Shown in pieces: positions 4,962 through 62,420 of a stretch of 64,000 nucleotides of DNA. The stretch is from contig JAUWIJ010000003.1 of NCBI GenBank assembly GCA_030605415.1, positions 4,441 to 68,440 of the forward strand, read 5' to 3'. Source of the stretch: an archaeon. GTDB taxonomy: Archaea; Nanobdellota; Nanobdellia; Pacearchaeales; GW2011-AR1. Every line of letters starts with the position of its first letter. Positions within the stretch are counted from its first letter, which is position 1. The position numbers and the translations under genes are program-made. Below the pieces are notes generated by a model. The model saw only the letters and a program-made list of their open reading frames with translations, made no database searches and was not told the DNA's origin.

Positions 4962-5100
4962 CCCACAAATCCCAAATTCCTCGCCAGTCCCATCCCCCGT
5001 CCCCAGCTCTGAGTTCTAAGTTCTCATCCCTGAGTCGGCGTGCCCCAACCCATTTTCCCCTTGTATCTGTGAGGGTATCTCTACGTTCTCAATTCTGAAC
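4962..5100 (+). repeat. composite GC-rich mosaic element
   Basis: It reads CACAAATCCCAAAT, then CCCCGTCCCCAGCTCTGAGTTCTAAGTTCT, then GAGTCGGCGTGCCCCAACC...TTGTATCTGTGAGGGTATC. Confidence 0.8.
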
Positions 5101-5105
5101 GTCGC

Positions 5106-5972
5106 TCAAACTCCCTCTTTGGCTCCCTCTCCAACCGAAACACTTTCACTTTCTTTGGCACTTTCAGCTCGTTTCAACTTAACTTCCTCATCAGCCTTTT
5201 CAGCCAAAGTTCTCATTTTTTCCTCAATTGCACTCTCTCCAGATTTCAACTCACTCTCTTTCTTCTCTCGGGCAAGTCTTTTCTTTCGCGGTTCTTCCAA
5301 AATCAATTTCTCCCCAACAAAATCTTCAAGACTAGGCAACGGTTTATCAATCTTGTATGCCTTCATATATTCCCTTGCCATCAACCAAAAGAATAACCCA
5401 AGCGACTTATTCGATTTATTATTTCCAATCATCACGACATCAATATTCGCAGTGTGATTATTAGTATCGCAAACGCCAACGACGGGAATTCTAATATTCT
5501 TCGCATCCGCCAGAGCATTCTTATCTAACCACGGGTCGCAAATAACAATCATCTTGGTTTCAATAAAATCATCCAGCACAGTATTGGTCAAAACCCCCGA
5601 CGGATATTTCTTCGTATAAGTTCGAACCCCAGTTAATTCAGCAAACATTTTTGCCGCCCTCCAGCCAGCCTCTCTTTTACAAACCAAAGTCCAATCACTC
5701 GGCTTGAATCGCTTAATAAAATCGATACCATCAGCCAATTTTTTATCAACCAAAAGTGTGTTCAAAATCGCAAGACCATCCAGCCTTCTCCTATAAACAT
5801 ATTTTCTCATCGTCGGCGTAATAACCTTTGTCCCCAAATACGACGCCGTCTTAATATAATCCTCAAGAGGAGTCAAAATCGTCTGGTCTTCTTTCTTATC
5901 GCCAACATTTTGTTTATCAGATGACTCGTCTACATTAACATCTTTTATAGTTTCTTCTTTTTTGTCCGCCAT
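5106..5972 (-). CDS. rps2: 30S ribosomal protein S2 (uS2) with Lys/Glu-rich N- and C-terminal extensions
   Basis: The core contains LGTKVITPTMRKYVYRRRLDGLAILN and VVGVCDTNN. The tail is a low-complexity KKRLAREKKESELK sequence. Confidence 0.9.
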   Translation of the reverse strand: MADKKEETIKDVNVDESSDKQNVGDKKEDQTILTPLEDYIKTASYLGTKVITPTMRKYVYRRRLDGLAILNTLLVDKKLADGIDFIKRFKPSDWTLVCKREAGWRAAKMFAELTGVRTYTKKYPSGVLTNTVLDDFIETKMIVICDPWLDKNALADAKNIRIPVVGVCDTNNHTANIDVVMIGNNKSNKSLGLFFWLMAREYMKAYKIDKPLPSLEDFVGEKLILEEPRKKRLAREKKESELKSGESAIEEKMRTLAEKADEEVKLKRAESAKESESVSVGEGAKEGV

Positions 5973-6325: not shown

Positions 6326-7576
6326 TTCAATCATCATCACTCTACGAAGTTTGATAAGCCTCTCTCGTCCAAAAATTCCAGTCTTGATAAATTGTCCTCC
6401 GAATCCGATACAATAATCTGCGAGAATATTATCCATCGTTTCTCCTGACCTATGTGAAAAAATCATAACAATATTATTCTTCTTGCAAAATTCCACAACT
6501 TTTTTCACTTCCAAAATGGACCCAATCTGATTCGGTTTAATAATCACAGCATTAATCGCTTCTCCCCGAACCGCCCGATGAACTCTTTTTAAATTTGTCG
6601 TCGTCAAATCATCCCCAACAATCAAAGTCTTACTTTTCTTTATTTCTGCAATGCCATTCGAAATTTCTTTAAATCCGGAAAAATCTTCCTCCTGCATTCC
6701 ATCTTCAACATAAAAAATTCCAAACTTTTTCACCAACCTCTCAATATAATCCGCCTGGTCAACCTTGTCCCGAATCAAATCTTTATTTTTATATCTATAA
6801 TAACTTTTATCATAAAATGTAGACGCTGCAACATCCAACCCAATCCTTAATTTATATCTTTTCGCAACAGTCTTTAAAATTTCAAGCACCTCTTCATTCG
6901 TTTTACCTGTCATCCAAGCCCCCTCATCATTTCTCTCCCTCCTCCATTCCCCAAACTTACCCCCAACCCCCAACCCCCAACCCCCAACCGGTTTTTGAAC
7001 CAAAACCTTCTTCGAGTACTCATAAGCTCTCAAATTCACAGTCACCGCTCGACCAAAAGTTTTCTCTTTCGGAATTAACAAAAACTCTTGAAAGTCAGGA
7101 CGTTTTCCATTAATAGTTTTAGAATGCAATCCTCCACCAATACAATTCCCGACGGGCATCGGCATCTTCGGTCGCAAACCATCATTCACATCATCATTAA
7201 TAAACTCCCACAATTCCTTTCCATTATCCGCGGCAGCCGCCTTCAAAAACACGCCTTCCATCGCATAATTTACATTCCCCCCAAACCTTCCAAACTTCGC
7301 CTCGAACCGTCGCATCAATTCAACAATCTGTTTCAAGTGCGCAATCCTTTTAATAATAAAATTTTTGTGCTTCAACTTCGGGCAAAAAACCCGCAACATT
7401 TTCATACTCCGTTCAATTCCCTTCGCATTATAACTCGCGACCTCACTCTTTCCTTTAGACTTTCCCGACGGTGCCGAACACTTAAATTTCCCTTCATATG
7501 TTACAATCTCAATTTGTATGCTTTTTTCTCCACGGGAATTTTTTACAAAACGGGGTAACACTTCTTTAATAAACAT
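6305..7576 (-). CDS. eno: enolase
   Basis: SHRSGETMDN matches the enolase signature (SHRSGETED). The N-terminal is RGEKSIQIEIVT, and the gene sits in the conserved archaeal rpoK-eno-rps2 neighbourhood. Confidence 0.85.
   Translation of the reverse strand: MFIKEVLPRFVKNSRGEKSIQIEIVTYEGKFKCSAPSGKSKGKSEVASYNAKGIERSMKMLRVFCPKLKHKNFIIKRIAHLKQIVELMRRFEAKFGRFGGNVNYAMEGVFLKAAAADNGKELWEFINDDVNDGLRPKMPMPVGNCIGGGLHSKTINGKRPDFQEFLLIPKEKTFGRAVTVNLRAYEYSKKVLVQKPVGGWGLGVGGKFGEWRRERNDEGAWMTGKTNEEVLEILKTVAKRYKLRIGLDVAASTFYDKSYYRYKNKDLIRDKVDQADYIERLVKKFGIFYVEDGMQEEDFSGFKEISNGIAEIKKSKTLIVGDDLTTTNLKRVHRAVRGEAINAVIIKPNQIGSILEVKKVVEFCKKNNIVMIFSHRSGETMDNILADYCIGFGGQFIKTGIFGRERLIKLRRVMMIERTLLRS
6961..6988 (+). repeat. 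(CCCCAAC)x4 perfect heptamer array inside eno
   Basis: Read directly from the sequence. It encodes VGGWGLGVGG in frame. Confidence 0.95.
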
Positions 7577-58192: not shown

Positions 58193-58516
58193 TTATCTAA
58201 TAAAATATTCAATCTTATTTCTTACTTTCTCATAAAACTTTTTTTCAAGTCGTGCCAATTTTTTAATAATAATTCTTTCATCAATTGCAAAAATCCTATG
58301 AGGCTTAACCCAACTTTTGAATGGTAATGTCCCGTCGCTAAATGAATTTTTATTAATTAAAACGCCATCCATTGGTCTATTGGAAGTAATCAGGCAACAA
58401 ATTTTATCTCCGCCTTTCAAGTTTTTATTCGAAATAATTATCGCGGGTCTTTTCTTAGCGCCAGTTAAATCCGAGTAAGGAAATGGAATTAAAATAATAT
58501 CTCTTTGTTTAAACAT
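58193..58516 (-). CDS. PemK/MazF-family toxin
   Basis: The evidence is RDIILIPFPYSDLTGAKKRPAIIIS and CCLITSN. Confidence 0.8.
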   Translation of the reverse strand: MFKQRDIILIPFPYSDLTGAKKRPAIIISNKNLKGGDKICCLITSNRPMDGVLINKNSFSDGTLPFKSWVKPHRIFAIDERIIIKKLARLEKKFYEKVRNKIEYFIR

Positions 58517-58739
58517 TATTCCACCTTTCGTCGGTCTCGTTGTCCCAATCTTTTTTCAAAACTTCTTCCGACGCCAACATAGTCATAATGCCCTCGCTGT
58601 TTTTATCATTCTCAATTTGATTAAGTTCTGCAATTCTTTGCCGAATAACCTTTCTAATAAACTCGCTCCATTTAATTTCAGAATATTTTTTCATTAAATT
58701 ATAGGTTTCAGTCTCAATCGATAACGTGACATTTGTCAT
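58509..58739 (-). CDS. antitoxin (RHH-like) for the MazF-type toxin
   Basis: 76 aa. It overlaps the toxin start by 8 nt. The N-terminal VTLSIETETYNLMKK has a strand-helix pattern. Confidence 0.55.
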   Translation of the reverse strand: MTNVTLSIETETYNLMKKYSEIKWSEFIRKVIRQRIAELNQIENDKNSEGIMTMLASEEVLKKDWDNETDERWNNV

Positions 58740-59805: not shown

Positions 59806-60237
59806 CTAAATACTCTTAATTTTTCTCTGAAATTTTATTTTTTCTCCCTGATGATCAAAAATAATAATAAATTTATCGAAAAATCCATTCCTTCCCAAAA
59901 TCATCGGAGCTTTGGTTTCTTGCATTATTACTTCCACAGGAACATCTCTAAATTTATAATTTTCATGAGAATTTTGAATTTTAATGCTCATTTTAGTTTT
60001 TAATGTTTTTACTTGCCCGCCGATTCCATTTGCGATAGTTTCTTTTCCACTCAAATCCAAACCAATCAATTCCGCTAAATCTCTCGGGATAACAGAAACA
60101 TCCGCCCCAGAATCTACCAGAGCCATAGTCTGAATCCAGCCAGGACCATTTCCCTTAATTTCTATAGGAATATGTGGCAATTTCGCCTCAACTCCATCGG
60201 CTCTTTTCTGCAATTTATACTTAAAAATAATCGCCAT
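59806..60237 (-). CDS. retropepsin-like aspartic protease
   Basis: ALVDSGADVSVIP is the D-S/T-G-A active-site loop, and there is a later ILGRNGFF. Confidence 0.75.
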   Translation of the reverse strand: MAIIFKYKLQKRADGVEAKLPHIPIEIKGNGPGWIQTMALVDSGADVSVIPRDLAELIGLDLSGKETIANGIGGQVKTLKTKMSIKIQNSHENYKFRDVPVEVIMQETKAPMILGRNGFFDKFIIIFDHQGEKIKFQRKIKSI

Positions 60238-60238
60238 C

Positions 60239-60439
60239 TTAAAAAATCATTGTTTGTTCTTCAGGAACTCTAGCAATCATAATCTTCTTTTTAGGATATT
60301 TCTCTTGAGCCTCTTCAAATGTTTTTTTTGCGTTATCCCCGAACGAAACAATATTTTCCTCACAAATAGCTATCCACTTGCCCTTAAAATTTTCTAAATT
60401 AGAACTCATAAAAACATTATAATTTGATTCTTTAGTCAT
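60239..60439 (-). CDS. DUF5678-like small protein
   Basis: 66 aa with FKGKWIAICEENIVSFGDNAKKTFEEAQEKYP. Only 1 nt separates it from the protease gene. Confidence 0.55.
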   Translation of the reverse strand: MTKESNYNVFMSSNLENFKGKWIAICEENIVSFGDNAKKTFEEAQEKYPKKKIMIARVPEEQTMIF

Positions 60440-60485: not shown

Positions 60486-61052
60486 CTAGTTGCCTCTTCT
60501 TCTGTTTGCTCTCAACGACGGTCTAACTTTTGGAGCTTTAACCGTACTGTGTCTCAATCCTCGAGCCTTTCTTCCGGCGGAACTAATTCCCCGCAAAGCT
60601 CTTTTCTTCGGAGCTTTAACAAAATCACCCAACTGCTTATCGTTCTTAATTTCAGGAGCCGAACGGTCAACCAAAATCACCTCGTAAAAATAATGCATTC
60701 CATCTTTTCCAACCTGATAAGAATTCAAAACTTCCATATTACTAAATTTCCTTGCAACCTTTTGTTCCGCAATCTCTTTATAATTCATCCTCAGATTTTT
60801 TCTAATATGCAATCTCTTCGTCCGCCTCGCTTTATTAGGACGTGTTCTTTTATGCCCGCCTCGTTTAATCTTAACCCTGACAACAGTCACACCCTTCTTT
60901 GCCTTATATCCCAAAGCCCGAGCCCTGTCCAACCTCAACGGTTTTTCAACCCGAGTAATCGCACCGCACTTCCGCCACTCAATCATTCTCGCTCTAAGCA
61001 ACTTCACGTCCGGCTTCTTCCACGCCTCTCTCAAATATTTTACAATTCCCAT
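60486..61052 (-). CDS. rpl15e: 50S ribosomal protein L15e
   Basis: The evidence is YLREAWKKP, RARMIEWRK and RLDRARALGYKAKKGVTVVRVKIKRGG. Confidence 0.9.
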   Translation of the reverse strand: MGIVKYLREAWKKPDVKLLRARMIEWRKCGAITRVEKPLRLDRARALGYKAKKGVTVVRVKIKRGGHKRTRPNKARRTKRLHIRKNLRMNYKEIAEQKVARKFSNMEVLNSYQVGKDGMHYFYEVILVDRSAPEIKNDKQLGDFVKAPKKRALRGISSAGRKARGLRHSTVKAPKVRPSLRANRRRGN

Positions 61053-61307
61053 ATTCTCTTTATCAAAAATTCCTTTTTAAATCTTTCAGTAAAAAGTTTA
61101 AACGTGAGATATCTTCGATGTTACTCTTTAAAGTTAATCATCTTAAATTTTCTCTCGAAAACCTTCTGCGCAAAAAGCACATCTACTTACCAGAACATCC
61201 TATATTGTGTTGGAGAAAAATTGAATATGAATCAACTAAATGTTGAATATGAATTGTGGGTTGTGCGATGTAAAGTCGCGGATTGATGAAAGGAGTTAAT
61301 ATAAAAA

Positions 61308-61523
61308 TCACAAAAGATTTTCTAAACCTTTTAATGTTATACTTATTATTGCTACATTATAAAATGTTAATCCAATAATTTCAGCAGTACCTTTCATAAG
61401 ATATTTTGGAAGTTTGTTTGAGTTATCTAAATTTGAGACTCCATAAACATATCTTGTTATATATTTCATTGCTCCAAGTATCGGAACAAAATCTTTTGCT
61501 TCCAATTTAGGTTTACTTGTCAT
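61308..61523 (-). CDS. small hypothetical membrane protein
   Basis: 71-aa ORF with one hydrophobic segment. Weak support. Confidence 0.3.
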   Translation of the reverse strand: MTSKPKLEAKDFVPILGAMKYITRYVYGVSNLDNSNKLPKYLMKGTAEIIGLTFYNVAIISITLKGLENLL

Positions 61524-61654
61524 AACTTTTCTAAAAATCCAAACTATTTAAACTTTTCCATCTGTTACCATTTTCTAATTACTTCAATTTTCTCCCACTA
61601 ATAATGTTGTGAATAATGATAATTAAATCAAAAAATCCTTCAACACAATTTTAA

Positions 61655-61788
61655 ATCAGATGCCTCCAAAGTATCGGTATTATGTTTAGCCCTGTCCATT
61701 TTCAGGACCCTGAACCTCAATAGGTGAGCTGTTACGCTTTCTTTAAATGATAGCTGCTTCTAAACTTACATCCCCAGTGTCTCAGGTT
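61655..61788 (-). rRNA. isolated 23S rRNA-like fragment (GTPase-associated centre H42-H44 and following, about E. coli 1040-1165)
   Basis: The minus strand reads GGGAUGUAAGUUUAGAAGCAGCUAUCAUUUAAAGAAAGCGUAACAGCUCACC...GGGCUAAACAUAAUACCGAUACUUUGGAGG. From memory, the E. coli sequence is GGAUGUUGGCUUAGAAGCAGCCAUCAUUUAAAGAAAGCGUAAUAGCUCAC...GGGGCUAAACCAUGCACCGAAGCUGCGG. There is no flanking rRNA sequence. Confidence 0.7.
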
Positions 61789-61811
61789 CAAATCAATGAG
61801 CCCGCCGTGAT

Positions 61812-61851
61812 GAGTCTGCCCCAACCAATTTTTTTATATTTGTGAGGGTAT
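61812..61851 (+). repeat. GTCTGCCCCAACC...TTTGTGAGGGTA module
   Basis: The sequence is gagtctgccccaaccaatttttttatatttgtgagggtat. The same ~45-nt module occurs at 5032-5079 and 10733-10776. Confidence 0.85.
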
Positions 61852-61965
61852 TTACTCAAAAAATACATCTCAAAATTATAAATAAAAAATCAGAACGCAT
61901 AATTTTTCAAAGCGTTTTCCTCGCACAGGACTATCCTGTCTTCAAATCAATGAGCCCGCTGTGAT
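61851..61965 (+). repeat. 115-nt unit, copy 1 (tRNA-Ile 3' flank plus 15 nt of the tRNA)
   Basis: tttactcaaaaaatacatctc...cacaggactatcctgtcttcaaatcaatgagcccgctgtgat is almost identical to 62083-62199. Confidence 0.9.
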
Positions 61966-62048
61966 GGGTCTGCCCCACCCAATCTTCTTTTATATTTGGT
62001 AGGGTACAGCGTGCCCCAACCTAATTTAAAAATATATTTGTGAGGGTA
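61966..62048 (+). repeat. two tandem GTCTGCCCCA(A/C)CC...TTTG(G/T)(T/G)AGGGTA modules
   Basis: They lie at 61966-62007 and 62008-62048. Confidence 0.85.
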
Positions 62049-62082
62049 TTGAACACTGTTCAAATCAATGAGCCCGCTGTGA

Positions 62083-62199
62083 TTTACTCAAAAAATGCAT
62101 CTCAAAATTATAAATAAAAAATCAGAACGCATAATTTTTCAAAGCGTTTTCCTCGCACAGGACTGTCCTGTCTTCAAATCCAAATGAGCCCGCTGTGAT
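62083..62199 (+). repeat. 115-nt unit, copy 2, running into the intact tRNA-Ile
   Basis: It differs from copy 1 at two substitutions and one 2-nt indel. Confidence 0.9.
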
Positions 62200-62258
62200 T
62201 TGAACACAGGACCTCTGCCTTATCAGAGCAGCGCGCTACCTGGCTGCGCCACGGGCTC
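62185..62258 (-). tRNA. tRNA-Ile (anticodon GAU), 74 nt, no encoded CCA
   Basis: Folded by hand. The acceptor is GAGCCCG/CGGGCTC and the D stem is GCGC/GCGC. The anticodon stem is CTGCT/GGCAG with loop CTGATAA. The T arm is CTGTG-TTCAAAT-CACAG and the discriminator is A. Confidence 0.9.
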
Positions 62259-62292
62259 ATATAAATATTAACAGAAAATTCAATTTATAAAA

Positions 62293-62420
62293 CTAACCCC
62301 CTACTCTTAGTTGATAGTCTTTAGTTTGTAGTCAGTAGTCTCCCGCTTCCCCCGCCCCTAACTCCTAACCCCGACCAGCGAAGCGTCCGAACTCCGACCA
62401 CCGACCTCCTCGCCCCTATC
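62293..62420 (+). repeat. composite GC-rich mosaic element between tRNA-Ile and the next gene
   Basis: It contains TAGTTGATAGTC..TAGTTTGTAGTCAGTAGTC, CCCGCTTCCCCCGCCCCTAACTCCTAACC and CCGACCAGCGAAGCGTCCGAACTCCGACCACCGACC. Confidence 0.85.

What the first reader, a model, noticed from the sequence alone, without database searches (positions are those of the whole stretch)
61655..61788. Orphan 23S rRNA fragment covering the complete L11/P0-binding GTPase-associated centre
The minus strand at 61655-61788 matches the 23S region around E. coli 1040-1165, including the whole 58-nt GAC (..UUAGAAGCAGCUAUCAUUUAAAGAAAGCGUAACAGCUCAC..). The match is very high where bacteria and archaea are invariant. 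There is no rRNA sequence on either side. Its upstream end abuts a partial tRNA-Ile 3' end. I see three possibilities:
- A captured rRNA pseudogene fragment.
- A decoy or autoregulatory mimic for L11/P0/L12.
- A separately encoded piece of a fragmented 23S rRNA, which would be the most interesting case.
Basis: partly seen in the sequence, partly recalled or inferred. Interest (0 to 1): 0.72.

Follow-up and report, generated by a model that had tools for sequence, protein, structure and literature searches.

The report
Stray 23S piece beside mobile insertion
The isolated ribosomal-RNA fragment is real, but it is most likely a slightly decayed passenger: one of two short 23S flanks carried along when a small gene-bearing insertion element that normally sits in the 23S gene was copied into a recombination hot spot next to a tRNA gene.

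Summary
The 23S match is real: Rfam archaeal LSU, 78.6 bits, E 2e-20, covering H42-H44. It is not isolated, though. The locus reads 23S piece A (61795-61659), a 458-nt insertion (61658-61201) with its own TATA-like box and an intact 71-aa ORF, then 23S piece B (61200-61149). Several DPANN archaea carry the same insertion family at exactly this site (helix-45 loop) in their full 23S genes. The cassette lies in a variable islet between tRNA-Ile and L15e. That islet holds three extra copies of the tRNA 3' end. None of 80 syntenic loci from other species has the cassette. The closest relatives have a 132-aa ORF there instead. The rRNA stubs carry five changes at positions invariant in 30 real DPANN 23S genes. 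Three more ectopic copies of the same element family, with rRNA stubs of 0-52 nt, exist in other genomes. One of them coexists with an intact 23S gene. The best reading is an ectopic, mildly decayed partial 23S duplicate on which the GTPase-associated centre is a passenger. A split rRNA or a conserved L11/P0 decoy is not supported. The real 23S gene of this genome could not be retrieved.

The parts
62184..62259 (-). Complete tRNA-Ile (anticodon GAT). Its 3' end is the repeated att-like core.
   Evidence: ARAGORN; Rfam tRNA 66.4 bits
62059..62083 (-). Extra copy 1 of the tRNA-Ile 3' end plus GATTTGAA (ATCACAGCGGGCTCATTGATTTGAA)
   Evidence: 0 mismatches; 0 expected by chance
61941..61965 (-). 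Extra copy 2 of the tRNA-Ile 3' end plus GATTTGAA
61787..61811 (-). Extra copy 3 of the tRNA-Ile 3' end (1 mismatch). Its GATTTGAA(C) tail overlaps the start of 23S piece A (TTGAAC microhomology).
61850..61948 (-). Module B, copy 2 (99 nt, 98% identical to 62082-62180). Filler between att-like copies, also present in relatives L043, L062 and L112.
62082..62180 (-). Module B, copy 1
61659..61795 (-). 23S piece A: upper part of H42, complete H43-H44 (GTPase-associated centre), and onward to the 5' strand of helix 45 (...GGAGGCATC). Two changes unique among 30 real genes (AAGC>AAGT, GGGCCC>GGGTCC).
61201..61658 (-). Insertion element of a family found in the helix-45 loop of real DPANN 23S genes. 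It has a 5' TGATTTAAAATT, paired ends ATTGTGTTGAAGGA/TCTCCAACACAAT, an internal promoter block, an ORF, and a 3' (T/A)TCATATTCAA motif.
61545..61552 (-). TTTAAATA, a TATA-like box 22 nt upstream of the ORF start codon. It is part of a ~70-nt promoter-like block also found in L062, L005, L128, L134 and L203.
   Evidence: sequence. Promoter function is inferred.
61308..61523 (-). Intact 71-aa ORF (two hydrophobic stretches, no Pfam family). Homologues at 61% and 54% identity lie in a non-rRNA locus and in a different 23S insertion site.
61149..61200 (-). 23S piece B: 3' strand of helix 45 and ~45 nt beyond. Three unique changes (AGGCGT>AGATGT, plus a 1-nt deletion).
61053..61142 (-). Resumption of homology with relatives: the last ~10 nt of a 132-aa ORF present in L038, L039 and L062 (GATGATTAAC) plus the L15e upstream region.
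60486..61052 (-). Ribosomal protein L15e gene, the downstream anchor of the conserved synteny.

Best explanation
The GAC fragment is the long upstream flank of an ectopic partial copy of the 23S rRNA gene. The copied segment runs from mid-H42 to just past helix 45. It includes a ~458-nt insertion element of the kind that occupies the helix-45 loop of real 23S genes in related DPANN archaea. That element has paired ends, its own TATA-like box and a small ORF. The segment was inserted at the DNA level into a variable islet between tRNA-Ile and the L15e gene. This islet is a repeated target of site-specific integration at the tRNA 3' end. The left junction uses a TTGAAC microhomology. The insertion replaced a 132-aa ORF that the closest relatives still have. 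The rRNA stubs are passengers, or at most homology arms. They are not part of the ribosome and are drifting by C>T and G>A changes. The element's ORF is intact and may still be expressed from its own promoter. Shown: the anatomy, the family relationship of the insertion, absence from relatives, recurrence of ectopic copies elsewhere, and the unique substitutions. Inferred: the direction and mechanism of the copying event, the absence of function of the GAC stub, and expression of the ORF.
For: (1) Layout is piece A, insertion, piece B. The two pieces are contiguous in insertion-free 23S genes. (2) The same insertion family sits at the same site in full-length 23S genes L002, L005, L007, L026, L034, L129, L136 and L203. 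(3) The ancestral order, 204-aa gene then tRNA-Ile then L15e, is conserved in dozens of species. None of 80 syntenic loci contains rRNA sequence. L038, L039 and L062 have a 132-aa ORF where the cassette now sits, and homology resumes at 61142. (4) Extra copies of each species' own tRNA-Ile 3' end occur in ~10 species, and the gaps hold varied cargo. This marks an integration hot spot. (5) There are five changes at positions invariant in 30 real DPANN 23S genes: four transitions and one deletion. (6) The downstream junction is confirmed independently by Logan contig L119. (7) L118 carries the same insertion (1 difference in ~457 nt) with consensus bases at both exon positions where the orphan deviates, so a more canonical copy exists in the population. 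(8) Further ectopic copies of the family have rRNA stubs of differing length: L165 (32 + >=52 nt, next to a Fic-family gene), L128 (12 + 28 nt) and L134 (~0 + 30 nt, between RNase P RNA and tRNA-Phe). L128 coexists with an intact 23S (L203) in the same assembly.
Against: The real 23S gene of this genome was not found. Neither the genome collection nor the metagenome collection holds this lineage, so 'duplicate' is inferred rather than shown. L118 could be a less-decayed orphan in a sister strain rather than the real gene. The upstream junction (tRNA-end copy into piece A) is supported only by the window contig, because the independent Logan contig L121 stops before the repeat array. The GAC core itself is almost untouched (one C>U that keeps a G-U pair), so a residual RNA-level activity cannot be excluded. 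The copying mechanism is unknown, and no integrase or endonuclease gene lies nearby.
Confidence: 0.75

Rival explanations
1. Donor cassette. The ectopic copy is a functional reservoir of the insertion element, and the two 23S stubs act as homology arms. They would let the element, with its promoter and cargo ORF, enter an empty helix-45 loop of a 23S gene by homologous recombination or gene conversion, without a homing endonuclease.
For: Four ectopic copies all keep rRNA sequence on at least one side, and usually both strands of the helix-45 stem. The stubs lie in regions nearly identical across the clade: a 40-mer is shared by 32 species. No insertion ORF has an endonuclease domain. The elements have conserved ends with swapped cargo. 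The insertion in the orphan is 99.8% identical to L118 while the stubs differ more.
Against: Stub lengths vary from ~0 to 137 nt and L134 seems to lack the upstream arm, which fits imprecise capture as well. My searches required the element's end plus exon sequence, so copies without stubs would have been missed. No transfer event was observed.
Confidence: 0.12
2. Functional GAC mimic. The fragment is transcribed and its H43-H44 domain binds L11 and/or P0, acting as a regulator or decoy.
For: H43-H44 is complete, and 57 of 58 core positions equal the consensus of real genes. The single change keeps a G-U pair. An A/T-rich TATA-like stretch lies ~45 nt upstream (sequence).
Against: It is not conserved: absent from all 80 syntenic loci and from the closest relatives. 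It is not linked to L11, L10 or L12 genes. The base of H42 cannot close, and the predicted fold is no more stable than shuffles (z 0.21). All 32 other archaeal exact GAC matches sit in full 23S genes. The high identity is what a recent copy would show anyway.
Confidence: 0.04
3. Split rRNA. The fragment is the only copy of H42-H44 in the genome and is assembled into the ribosome in trans.
For: H42-H44 is a self-contained domain. The helix-45 insertion may well cause rRNA fragmentation at that point, as bacterial intervening sequences do. The real 23S of this genome was not seen.
Against: Five changes at invariant positions. The 5' strand of lower H42 is absent. Piece B stops after 52 nt inside a conserved region. 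Sister species lack the fragment. L118 shows a consensus-type copy of the same region. The analogous ectopic copy L128 coexists with an intact 23S, L203.
Confidence: 0.02
4. Assembly artefact. A 23S contig end was wrongly joined to the tRNA-Ile/L15e region.
For: The region is repeat-rich, independent assemblies break around it (L119 starts inside the GAC, L121 ends before the tRNA), and the left junction is seen only in the window.
Against: L119, from another sample and assembler, joins piece A (with the orphan-specific GGGTCC), the insertion, piece B and L15e. The shared sequence at the left junction is only 6-9 nt, far below any k-mer size. The orphan has its own private substitutions. Three other genomes show comparable ectopic copies.
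Confidence: 0.04
5. In-situ relic. A complete second rRNA operon once lay here and has been deleted down to this piece.
For: The piece lies next to a tRNA gene, as in rRNA operons.
Against: rRNA operons of relatives carry tRNA-Ala, not tRNA-Ile, between 16S and 23S. The 204-aa gene, tRNA-Ile, L15e order without rRNA is conserved in dozens of species. The closest relatives have a protein gene at the spot.
Confidence: 0.03

Closest known systems
Intervening sequences (IVS) in helix 45 (and helix 25) of bacterial 23S rRNA genes (Salmonella, Campylobacter, Leptospira, Coxiella), some carrying an ORF. Own knowledge; IVSs are mentioned in PMC11270868.
   Same: An insertion in the loop of helix 45 (about E. 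coli position 1170, inferred from the Rfam model offset). The ends pair into a long stem that extends the rRNA helix. Distribution is sporadic, suggesting horizontal spread. Some members carry a small ORF.
   Different: The host is archaeal (DPANN). The element has an internal TATA-like promoter block and interchangeable cargo ORFs. The excision enzyme is unknown, since most archaea lack RNase III. Ectopic copies carrying rRNA stubs are, to my knowledge, not a described feature of bacterial IVSs.
Archaeal rRNA introns: bulge-helix-bulge introns (Thermoproteales, PMC4496867) and group I introns in DPANN LSU genes (PMC6125680)
   Same: Insertions in archaeal 23S genes, often ORF-bearing and mobile. 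Pacearchaeota and Woesearchaeota LSU genes are known to be intron-rich. One 23S gene used here (L002, ASMP01000002.1) is among the sequences in PMC6125680.
   Different: No canonical BHB at the junction. No group I hit in Rfam. No homing-endonuclease domain in any ORF. The site (helix 45) is not among the LSU sites listed in PMC6125680 (1923, 1931, 2500, 2593).
Insertion sequences in rRNA genes of CPR bacteria (PMC11270868)
   Same: Many rRNA insertions in ultra-small, reduced-genome organisms. They include long insertions of unknown type, and closely related ORFs at different sites suggest 'ectopic transposition'. Here the 71-aa ORF family occurs at two different 23S sites.
   Different: In that paper 'ectopic' means another rRNA site. 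Here copies lie outside rRNA genes and carry rRNA flanks. The ORFs are not LAGLIDADG or GIY-YIG.
Integration hot spots at tRNA gene 3' ends (att-site duplications left by integrative elements)
   Same: Direct repeats of the tRNA's own 3' end, tracking each species' tRNA sequence. Gap content varies between species.
   Different: No integrase gene is present in or near the gap. The intervals between repeats are only ~100-150 nt, so these are remnants. The rRNA cassette lies after the last repeat and is not bounded by a further repeat.
Ribosomal-protein autoregulatory mRNA mimics of rRNA sites (L1, L10/L12 and L11 operon leaders)
   Same: A copy of an rRNA protein-binding site outside the rRNA.
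   Different: Those mimics are short, diverged, conserved across species and sit in the leader of the regulated operon. This one is a near-exact, lineage-specific rDNA copy upstream of an unrelated gene.

Membership tests
Ectopic partial rRNA gene copy (rRNA pseudogene fragment) | Significant homology to rRNA confined to a short segment, with non-rRNA DNA beyond | tested here: met
   Rfam hit on model positions 1157-1270 only. Piece B covers 52 nt. The flanks are a tRNA-end repeat and the L15e upstream region.
Ectopic partial rRNA gene copy (rRNA pseudogene fragment) | Absent from the orthologous locus of related genomes | tested here: met
   0 of 80 syntenic loci contain rRNA sequence. L038, L039 and L062 have a 132-aa ORF instead.
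Ectopic partial rRNA gene copy (rRNA pseudogene fragment) | Substitutions at positions constrained in functional rRNA | tested here: met
   5 changes never seen in 30 real DPANN 23S genes, all at invariant columns.
Ectopic partial rRNA gene copy (rRNA pseudogene fragment) | An intact full-length 23S gene elsewhere in the same genome | tested here: inconclusive
   The genome is not in the searchable collections. L118 shows a consensus-type copy in a related population. The analogous pair L128/L203 lies in one assembly.
Split / fragmented rRNA gene piece | Segment boundaries coincide with complete helices, so the piece can dock in trans | tested here: not met
   The 5' strand of lower H42 is missing (non-canonical pairs in the Rfam alignment). 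Piece B ends inside a conserved stretch.
Split / fragmented rRNA gene piece | The main 23S gene lacks the segment | not testable with these tools
   The rest of the genome is not available.
Ribosomal-protein regulatory mimic of the GAC | Conserved across related species and linked to the regulated r-protein operon | tested here: not met
   Lineage-specific. The neighbouring gene is L15e, not L11, L10 or L12.
Archaeal bulge-helix-bulge intron (for the 458-nt insertion) | Two 3-nt bulges separated by a 4-bp helix at the exon-intron junctions | tested here: not met
   The junction folds as exon helix, then an asymmetric loop (GGUUUAAAA / AUAUAG), then a long terminal stem, in 6 of the 7 family members folded (L028 folds differently). 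Relaxed BHB variants are not excluded.
Group I intron (for the insertion) | Match to group I covariance models | tested here: not met
   No group I hit at E<=10 in the window region, nor at gathering score in L005 or L034.
Helix-45 intervening sequence (bacterial type) | Located in the loop of 23S helix 45 | tested here: met
   In insertion-free genes the site is the 4-6-nt loop of the hairpin GGCAUUC-loop-GAAUGUU. The position of about E. coli 1170 is inferred from the Rfam model offset.
Helix-45 intervening sequence (bacterial type) | Ends pair into a stem, with pairing maintained while sequence varies | tested here: met
   Different stem sequences with kept complementarity in the window, L034, L007, L002 and L026. 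No formal covariation statistic was computed.
Helix-45 intervening sequence (bacterial type) | Excised from pre-rRNA without religation (fragmented 23S) | not testable with these tools
   Needs RNA data.
tRNA-gene att-site array | Direct repeats identical to the 3' end of the adjacent tRNA, species-specific | tested here: met
   Three extra copies in the window. Extra copies matching each species' own tRNA in L039, L040, L042, L043, L050, L080, L081, L112 and L115.
tRNA-gene att-site array | Integrase gene within the inserted DNA | tested here: not met
   No ORF larger than 71 aa lies between the tRNA and L15e. The neighbouring ORFs are a zinc-ribbon protein, an MFS transporter and L15e.

The most novel reading that the evidence does not exclude
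The helix-45 insertions of DPANN 23S genes may be an undescribed class of mobile gene cassette. They have conserved paired ends, a shared ~70-nt promoter block and interchangeable small cargo ORFs. On this reading they spread without an endonuclease, and ectopic copies such as this one, carrying rRNA homology arms, are the donors that seed empty 23S genes by recombination. The orphan GAC would then be a functional homology arm rather than junk.
Probability: 0.12. Interest if true: 0.6.

Novelty: new variant of a known kind. Interest (0 to 1): 0.35.

Why it matters
For the finding as stated, the result is deflating. The 'orphan GAC' is not a split ribosomal RNA or a conserved regulatory mimic. 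It is a passenger flank of a copied piece of rDNA.

The context is still useful in three ways:
- It warns annotators that short, very high-scoring rRNA hits in DPANN genomes can be stubs attached to mobile rRNA insertions.
- It documents a family of helix-45 insertions in archaeal 23S genes. They are neither canonical BHB introns nor group I introns. They carry their own promoter-like block and swap small ORFs.
- It shows, in four genomes, that such elements also live outside rRNA genes with bits of rRNA attached. This gives a concrete, testable route (recombination through rRNA arms) for how endonuclease-free rRNA insertions might spread.

Tried and rejected
- The exact GAC 40-mer in genome contigs found 37 real rRNA genes but not this genome or any other orphan.
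- The insertion-junction 30-mer in metagenome contigs gave 0 hits, so the real 23S of this lineage could not be fetched.
- The GAC 40-mer and the att core in viral contigs gave 0 hits each, so there is no evidence that a virus carried the cassette.
- The thermodynamic fold of the fragment gave z = 0.21, which is uninformative.
- No canonical BHB motif was found at the junction. No group I intron was detected.
- Pfam on the 71-aa ORF, five other insertion ORFs and the 132-aa ORF of L039 gave no family. The word-index protein search found only one near-identical cluster. BLASTP of the window ORF against the L034 ORF was not significant (E 0.47), so the cargo ORFs are not all homologous.
- Exact look-up of the L15e protein is not on record. 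Look-up of the 204-aa protein gave a contig that stops before the tRNA, so there is no independent support for the left junction.
- Literature searches found nothing on ectopic exon-insertion-exon copies in archaea.
- The 18-mer 5'-junction scan returned mostly chance bacterial hits. Only the archaeal ones (L005, L007, L128, L165, L203) were used.
- In one search, L122, L125, L130 and L137 were chance matches inside a conserved protein gene and were discarded.
- I considered a split-tRNA 3' half as the meaning of the tRNA-end copies. I rejected it because a complete tRNA-Ile lies adjacent and the copies behave like att duplications across species.

Full report
**1. The observation**

The minus strand at 61795-61685 matches Rfam LSU_rRNA_archaea model positions 1157-1270 (78.6 bits, E 1.9e-20, gathering score 50). 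It matches the bacterial LSU model at 1069-1185 (62.2 bits). The alignment covers the upper part of H42 and all of H43-H44, the GTPase-associated centre. A 40-nt core is identical to 32 real archaeal 23S genes of Pacearchaeota, Woesearchaeota and Nanoarchaeota. BLAST identity to the best of them is 96-97% over 132-133 nt.

The window holds no other rRNA at gathering score and one tRNA, tRNA-Ile(GAT) at 62184-62259. The neighbouring genes (S19e, TBP, DNA ligase, L15e) and the matching genomes place the window in a low-GC DPANN archaeon. So the match is real and far beyond chance.

**2.

The fragment is not isolated. BLAST against real 23S genes gives a second match at about 61202-61149. In insertion-free genes this sequence follows the first piece directly (L011: 7036-7168, then 7173-7227).

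Between the two pieces lie 458 nt (61658-61201). In seven real 23S genes (L002, L005, L007, L026, L027, L028, L034) an insertion starts at the same nucleotide. L034's is 90% identical to the window through 61615.

The site is the loop of the hairpin GGCAUUC-loop-GAAUGUU. From the Rfam model offset I place it at about E. coli 1170, in helix 45 (inference plus own knowledge).

So the locus reads: 23S piece A (61795-61659), the insertion, then 23S piece B (61200-61149).

**3. The insertion element**

Most family members share these features:
- a 5' end GGTTTAAAAT (TGATTTAAAAT in the window);
- ends that pair into a long stem whose sequence differs between members while pairing is kept (window AUUGUGUUGAAGGA/UCUCCAACACAAU, L007 UUGUACUGGAG/CUCCAGUACAA, L026 a stem of about 25 bp);
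- a conserved asymmetric internal loop between that stem and the exon helix;
- a TATA-like box (TTTAAATA at 61552-61545), typically about 20-30 nt before an ATG;
- an ORF of 61-141 aa;
- a 3' motif ATCATATTCAA.

L028, at the same site, has different end sequences and a different junction fold.

The ORFs are mostly unrelated to each other and none hits Pfam. The junction is not a canonical bulge-helix-bulge, and no group I model matches. The nearest analogue I know is the helix-45 intervening sequence of bacterial 23S genes. How the archaeal element is removed from rRNA, if it is removed, cannot be told from sequence.

The window's 71-aa ORF (61523-61308) is intact. It has two real homologues among 1.8 billion representative proteins:
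- P0002 (61% identical) lies in a non-rRNA locus, between ~35-nt direct repeats.
- P0003 (54% identical) lies in an insertion at a different 23S site, the GAACGUC|GUGAGACAG region that PMC6125680 lists as LSU/2593.

So the ORF is a genuine, mobile cargo gene.

**4. The surroundings**

In dozens of related species the order is a 204-aa zinc-ribbon protein gene, tRNA-Ile, then L15e. The tRNA usually lies 40-200 nt upstream of L15e. In the window that gap is about 1,130 nt (62183-61053).

The gap contains three extra copies of the tRNA's last 15 nt plus TTGATTTGAA (62083-62059, 61965-61941, 61811-61787; 0 expected by chance). They are separated by two kinds of filler module. About ten other species also have extra copies of their own tRNA-Ile 3' end in the gap, and the larger gaps carry assorted cargo genes. 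This is what repeated site-specific integration at a tRNA att site leaves behind, although no integrase gene is present now.

The rRNA cassette starts exactly where the filler modules start, after GATTTGAA(C). It overlaps the 23S sequence ...CTTGAACC... by a 6-nt microhomology. On the other side, homology with relatives resumes at 61142 with GATGATTAAC. That is the stop-codon region of a 132-aa ORF that L038, L039 (L15e 96% identical) and L062 still have.

BLAST of whole rRNA operons against all 80 syntenic loci found no rRNA sequence in any of them. So the cassette is a recent, lineage-specific replacement, not an ancestral feature.

**5. Is it decaying?**

I aligned the two rRNA pieces (about 185 nt) with 30 real DPANN 23S genes. 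They carry five changes never seen in a real gene, all at invariant columns:
- AAGC>AAGT, which keeps a G-U pair in H43;
- GGGCCC>GGGTCC, in the H42 3' strand, whose partner strand is absent anyway;
- AGGCGT>AGATGT, which counts as two changes;
- a 1-nt deletion.

The four substitutions are C>T or G>A. This is modest, but it points to relaxed constraint.

**6. Is there another copy?**

The orphan locus is seen again in Logan contig L119, from another sample. That contig joins piece A (with GGGTCC), the insertion, piece B and L15e, which rules out a chimera on that side.

ENA contig L118 (562 nt) carries the same insertion with one difference. It has the consensus C at both piece-A positions where the orphan deviates, and it breaks at the borders of the conserved exons. 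That is what the real 23S copy, or a less-decayed sister copy, would look like. I could not fetch the real 23S of this genome.

**7. Recurrence elsewhere**

Scanning the genome collection for the element's 3' end joined to exon B, and for its 5' junction, recovered real 23S genes (L005, L007, L129, L136, L203). It also recovered three more copies outside 23S genes:
- L165 has a Fic-family gene, then a 32-nt exon-A stub, the element with a 65-aa ORF, and at least 52 nt of exon B.
- L128 is a complete element flanked only by the two strands of the helix-45 stem (12 and 28 nt), 2.3 kb upstream of a 16S gene.
- L134 has the promoter block, a 95-aa ORF, the 3' end and a 30-nt exon-B stub, between the RNase P RNA gene and tRNA-Phe.

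L128 and L203 belong to the same assembly. L203 is a normal 23S through H42-H45 with an element at the same site. That element shares the 5' ~110 nt with L128 but has a different cargo ORF.

So ectopic copies with rRNA stubs of variable length recur, and at least one coexists with an intact 23S gene. The window's copy simply has the longest upstream stub, long enough to include the whole GAC.

**8. Verdict on the explanations**

Best explanation (about 0.75): an ectopic, mildly decayed partial 23S duplicate centred on a helix-45 insertion element. It was captured in the tRNA-Ile/L15e hot spot, and the GAC is a passenger.

Rivals:
- a donor cassette whose rRNA stubs serve as homology arms (0.12);
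- a functional GAC mimic (0.04);
- an assembly artefact (0.04);
- an in-situ relic of a second operon (0.03);
- a split rRNA (0.02).

The mechanism of copying is not established. It could be microhomology-mediated capture of an rDNA fragment or a recombination-based spread of the element.

**9. Comparison with the literature**

PMC6125680 reports group I introns, and their co-occurrence with BHB introns, in DPANN LSU genes at sites 1923, 1931, 2500 and 2593. Helix 45 is not among them.

PMC11270868 catalogues rRNA insertions in CPR bacteria. These include long uncharacterised ones, and the paper mentions RNase III-processed IVSs and 'ectopic transposition' between rRNA sites.

PMC4496867 covers BHB introns in Thermoproteales 16S genes.

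I found no description of exon-insertion-exon copies outside rRNA genes in archaea. The search library is limited, so this absence is weak evidence.

**10. Scores**

The finding as proposed (orphan GAC as a split rRNA or decoy) is not supported, and its core is ordinary: a pseudogene-like rDNA fragment. The attached element family and its ectopic copies are a moderately interesting variant of known rRNA insertions. Interest is 0.35. Novelty is 'new variant of a known kind'.

Noticed in passing
window 61600-61520 (-); L062:5050-5130; L005:2500-2580; L128:~150-225; L134:~6650-6710; L203:~5100-5170: A ~70-nt promoter-like block (GAAAATTGAAGTAATTA..AAATGGTAACAGATAGAAAAGTTTAAATA, then ~20 nt, then ATG) recurs at 85-90% identity upstream of unrelated small ORFs. 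It occurs in 23S helix-45 insertions, in a 16S-23S spacer (L005) and in the tRNA-Ile/L15e gap of another species (L062). It looks like a portable promoter for mobile small-ORF cassettes.
   Followed up: partly
window 61308-61523 (-); L139:1752-1970; L140:1179-1388; L141:1056-1265: The 71-aa ORF belongs to a small protein family (P0002 61% and P0003 54% identical) with two hydrophobic stretches and no Pfam match. It occurs in three settings: a helix-45 insertion, an insertion at the LSU/2593 region of a real 23S gene, and a non-rRNA locus between ~35-nt direct repeats. Its function is unknown.
   Followed up: partly
window 61812-62183 (-); L039-L043, L050, L080, L081, L112, L115 gaps: There is an array of tRNA-Ile 3'-end copies, each followed by GATTTGAA(C), the reverse complement of the T-loop. 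Two conserved filler modules separate them. Module B (99 nt) has two hairpins and a T-run. Module C is a CCCTACC...GGTGGGG palindrome around an A/T-rich loop. Both modules are conserved across species, so they may be more than debris, for example recombination sites, terminators or a small RNA.
   Followed up: partly
window ~62300-62420 (-): A G-rich stretch of ~115 nt (GGGGATAGGGGCGAGGAGGTCGGTGGTCGG...GGGGCGGGGGAAGCGGGAG) lies between the 204-aa gene and the tRNA-Ile promoter region. It is far above the local GC content and much longer than the corresponding spacer in L039. An independent Logan contig (L121) ends ~40 nt past the 204-aa gene, within this stretch.
   Followed up: no
L039:5516-5914; L062:~5492-5890; L038:1-110: A conserved 132-aa ORF (MGKQFYLDWNNHKLWGWEDG...) with no Pfam match sits directly upstream of L15e in the closest relatives. 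In the window the rRNA cassette has replaced it, and only its last ~10 nt remain (61142-61133).
   Followed up: partly
L005:2241-2356; L203:1056-1188: The Rfam tRNA hits next to the rRNA genes are 116 and 133 nt long, and ARAGORN missed the L005 one. They are probably intron-containing tRNAs. The L005 one lies between the 16S and 23S genes; the L203 one is on the opposite strand.
   Followed up: no
window 58193-58739 (-) and 59806-60439 (-): Small gene pairs lie just downstream of L15e. One is a PemK/MazF-like 107-aa ORF with a 76-aa partner (by appearance only). The other is a retropepsin-like aspartic protease (PF13650/PF13975 in L119) with a DUF5678 protein. They may be toxin-antitoxin-like or mobile cargo flanking the hot spot.
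   Followed up: no
L134:6202-6514: The RNase P RNA gene of an archaeal MAG (JBDRGM01) carries a ~70-nt insertion near its 3' end relative to the Rfam model, and lies immediately upstream of an ectopic copy of the helix-45 element.
   Followed up: no
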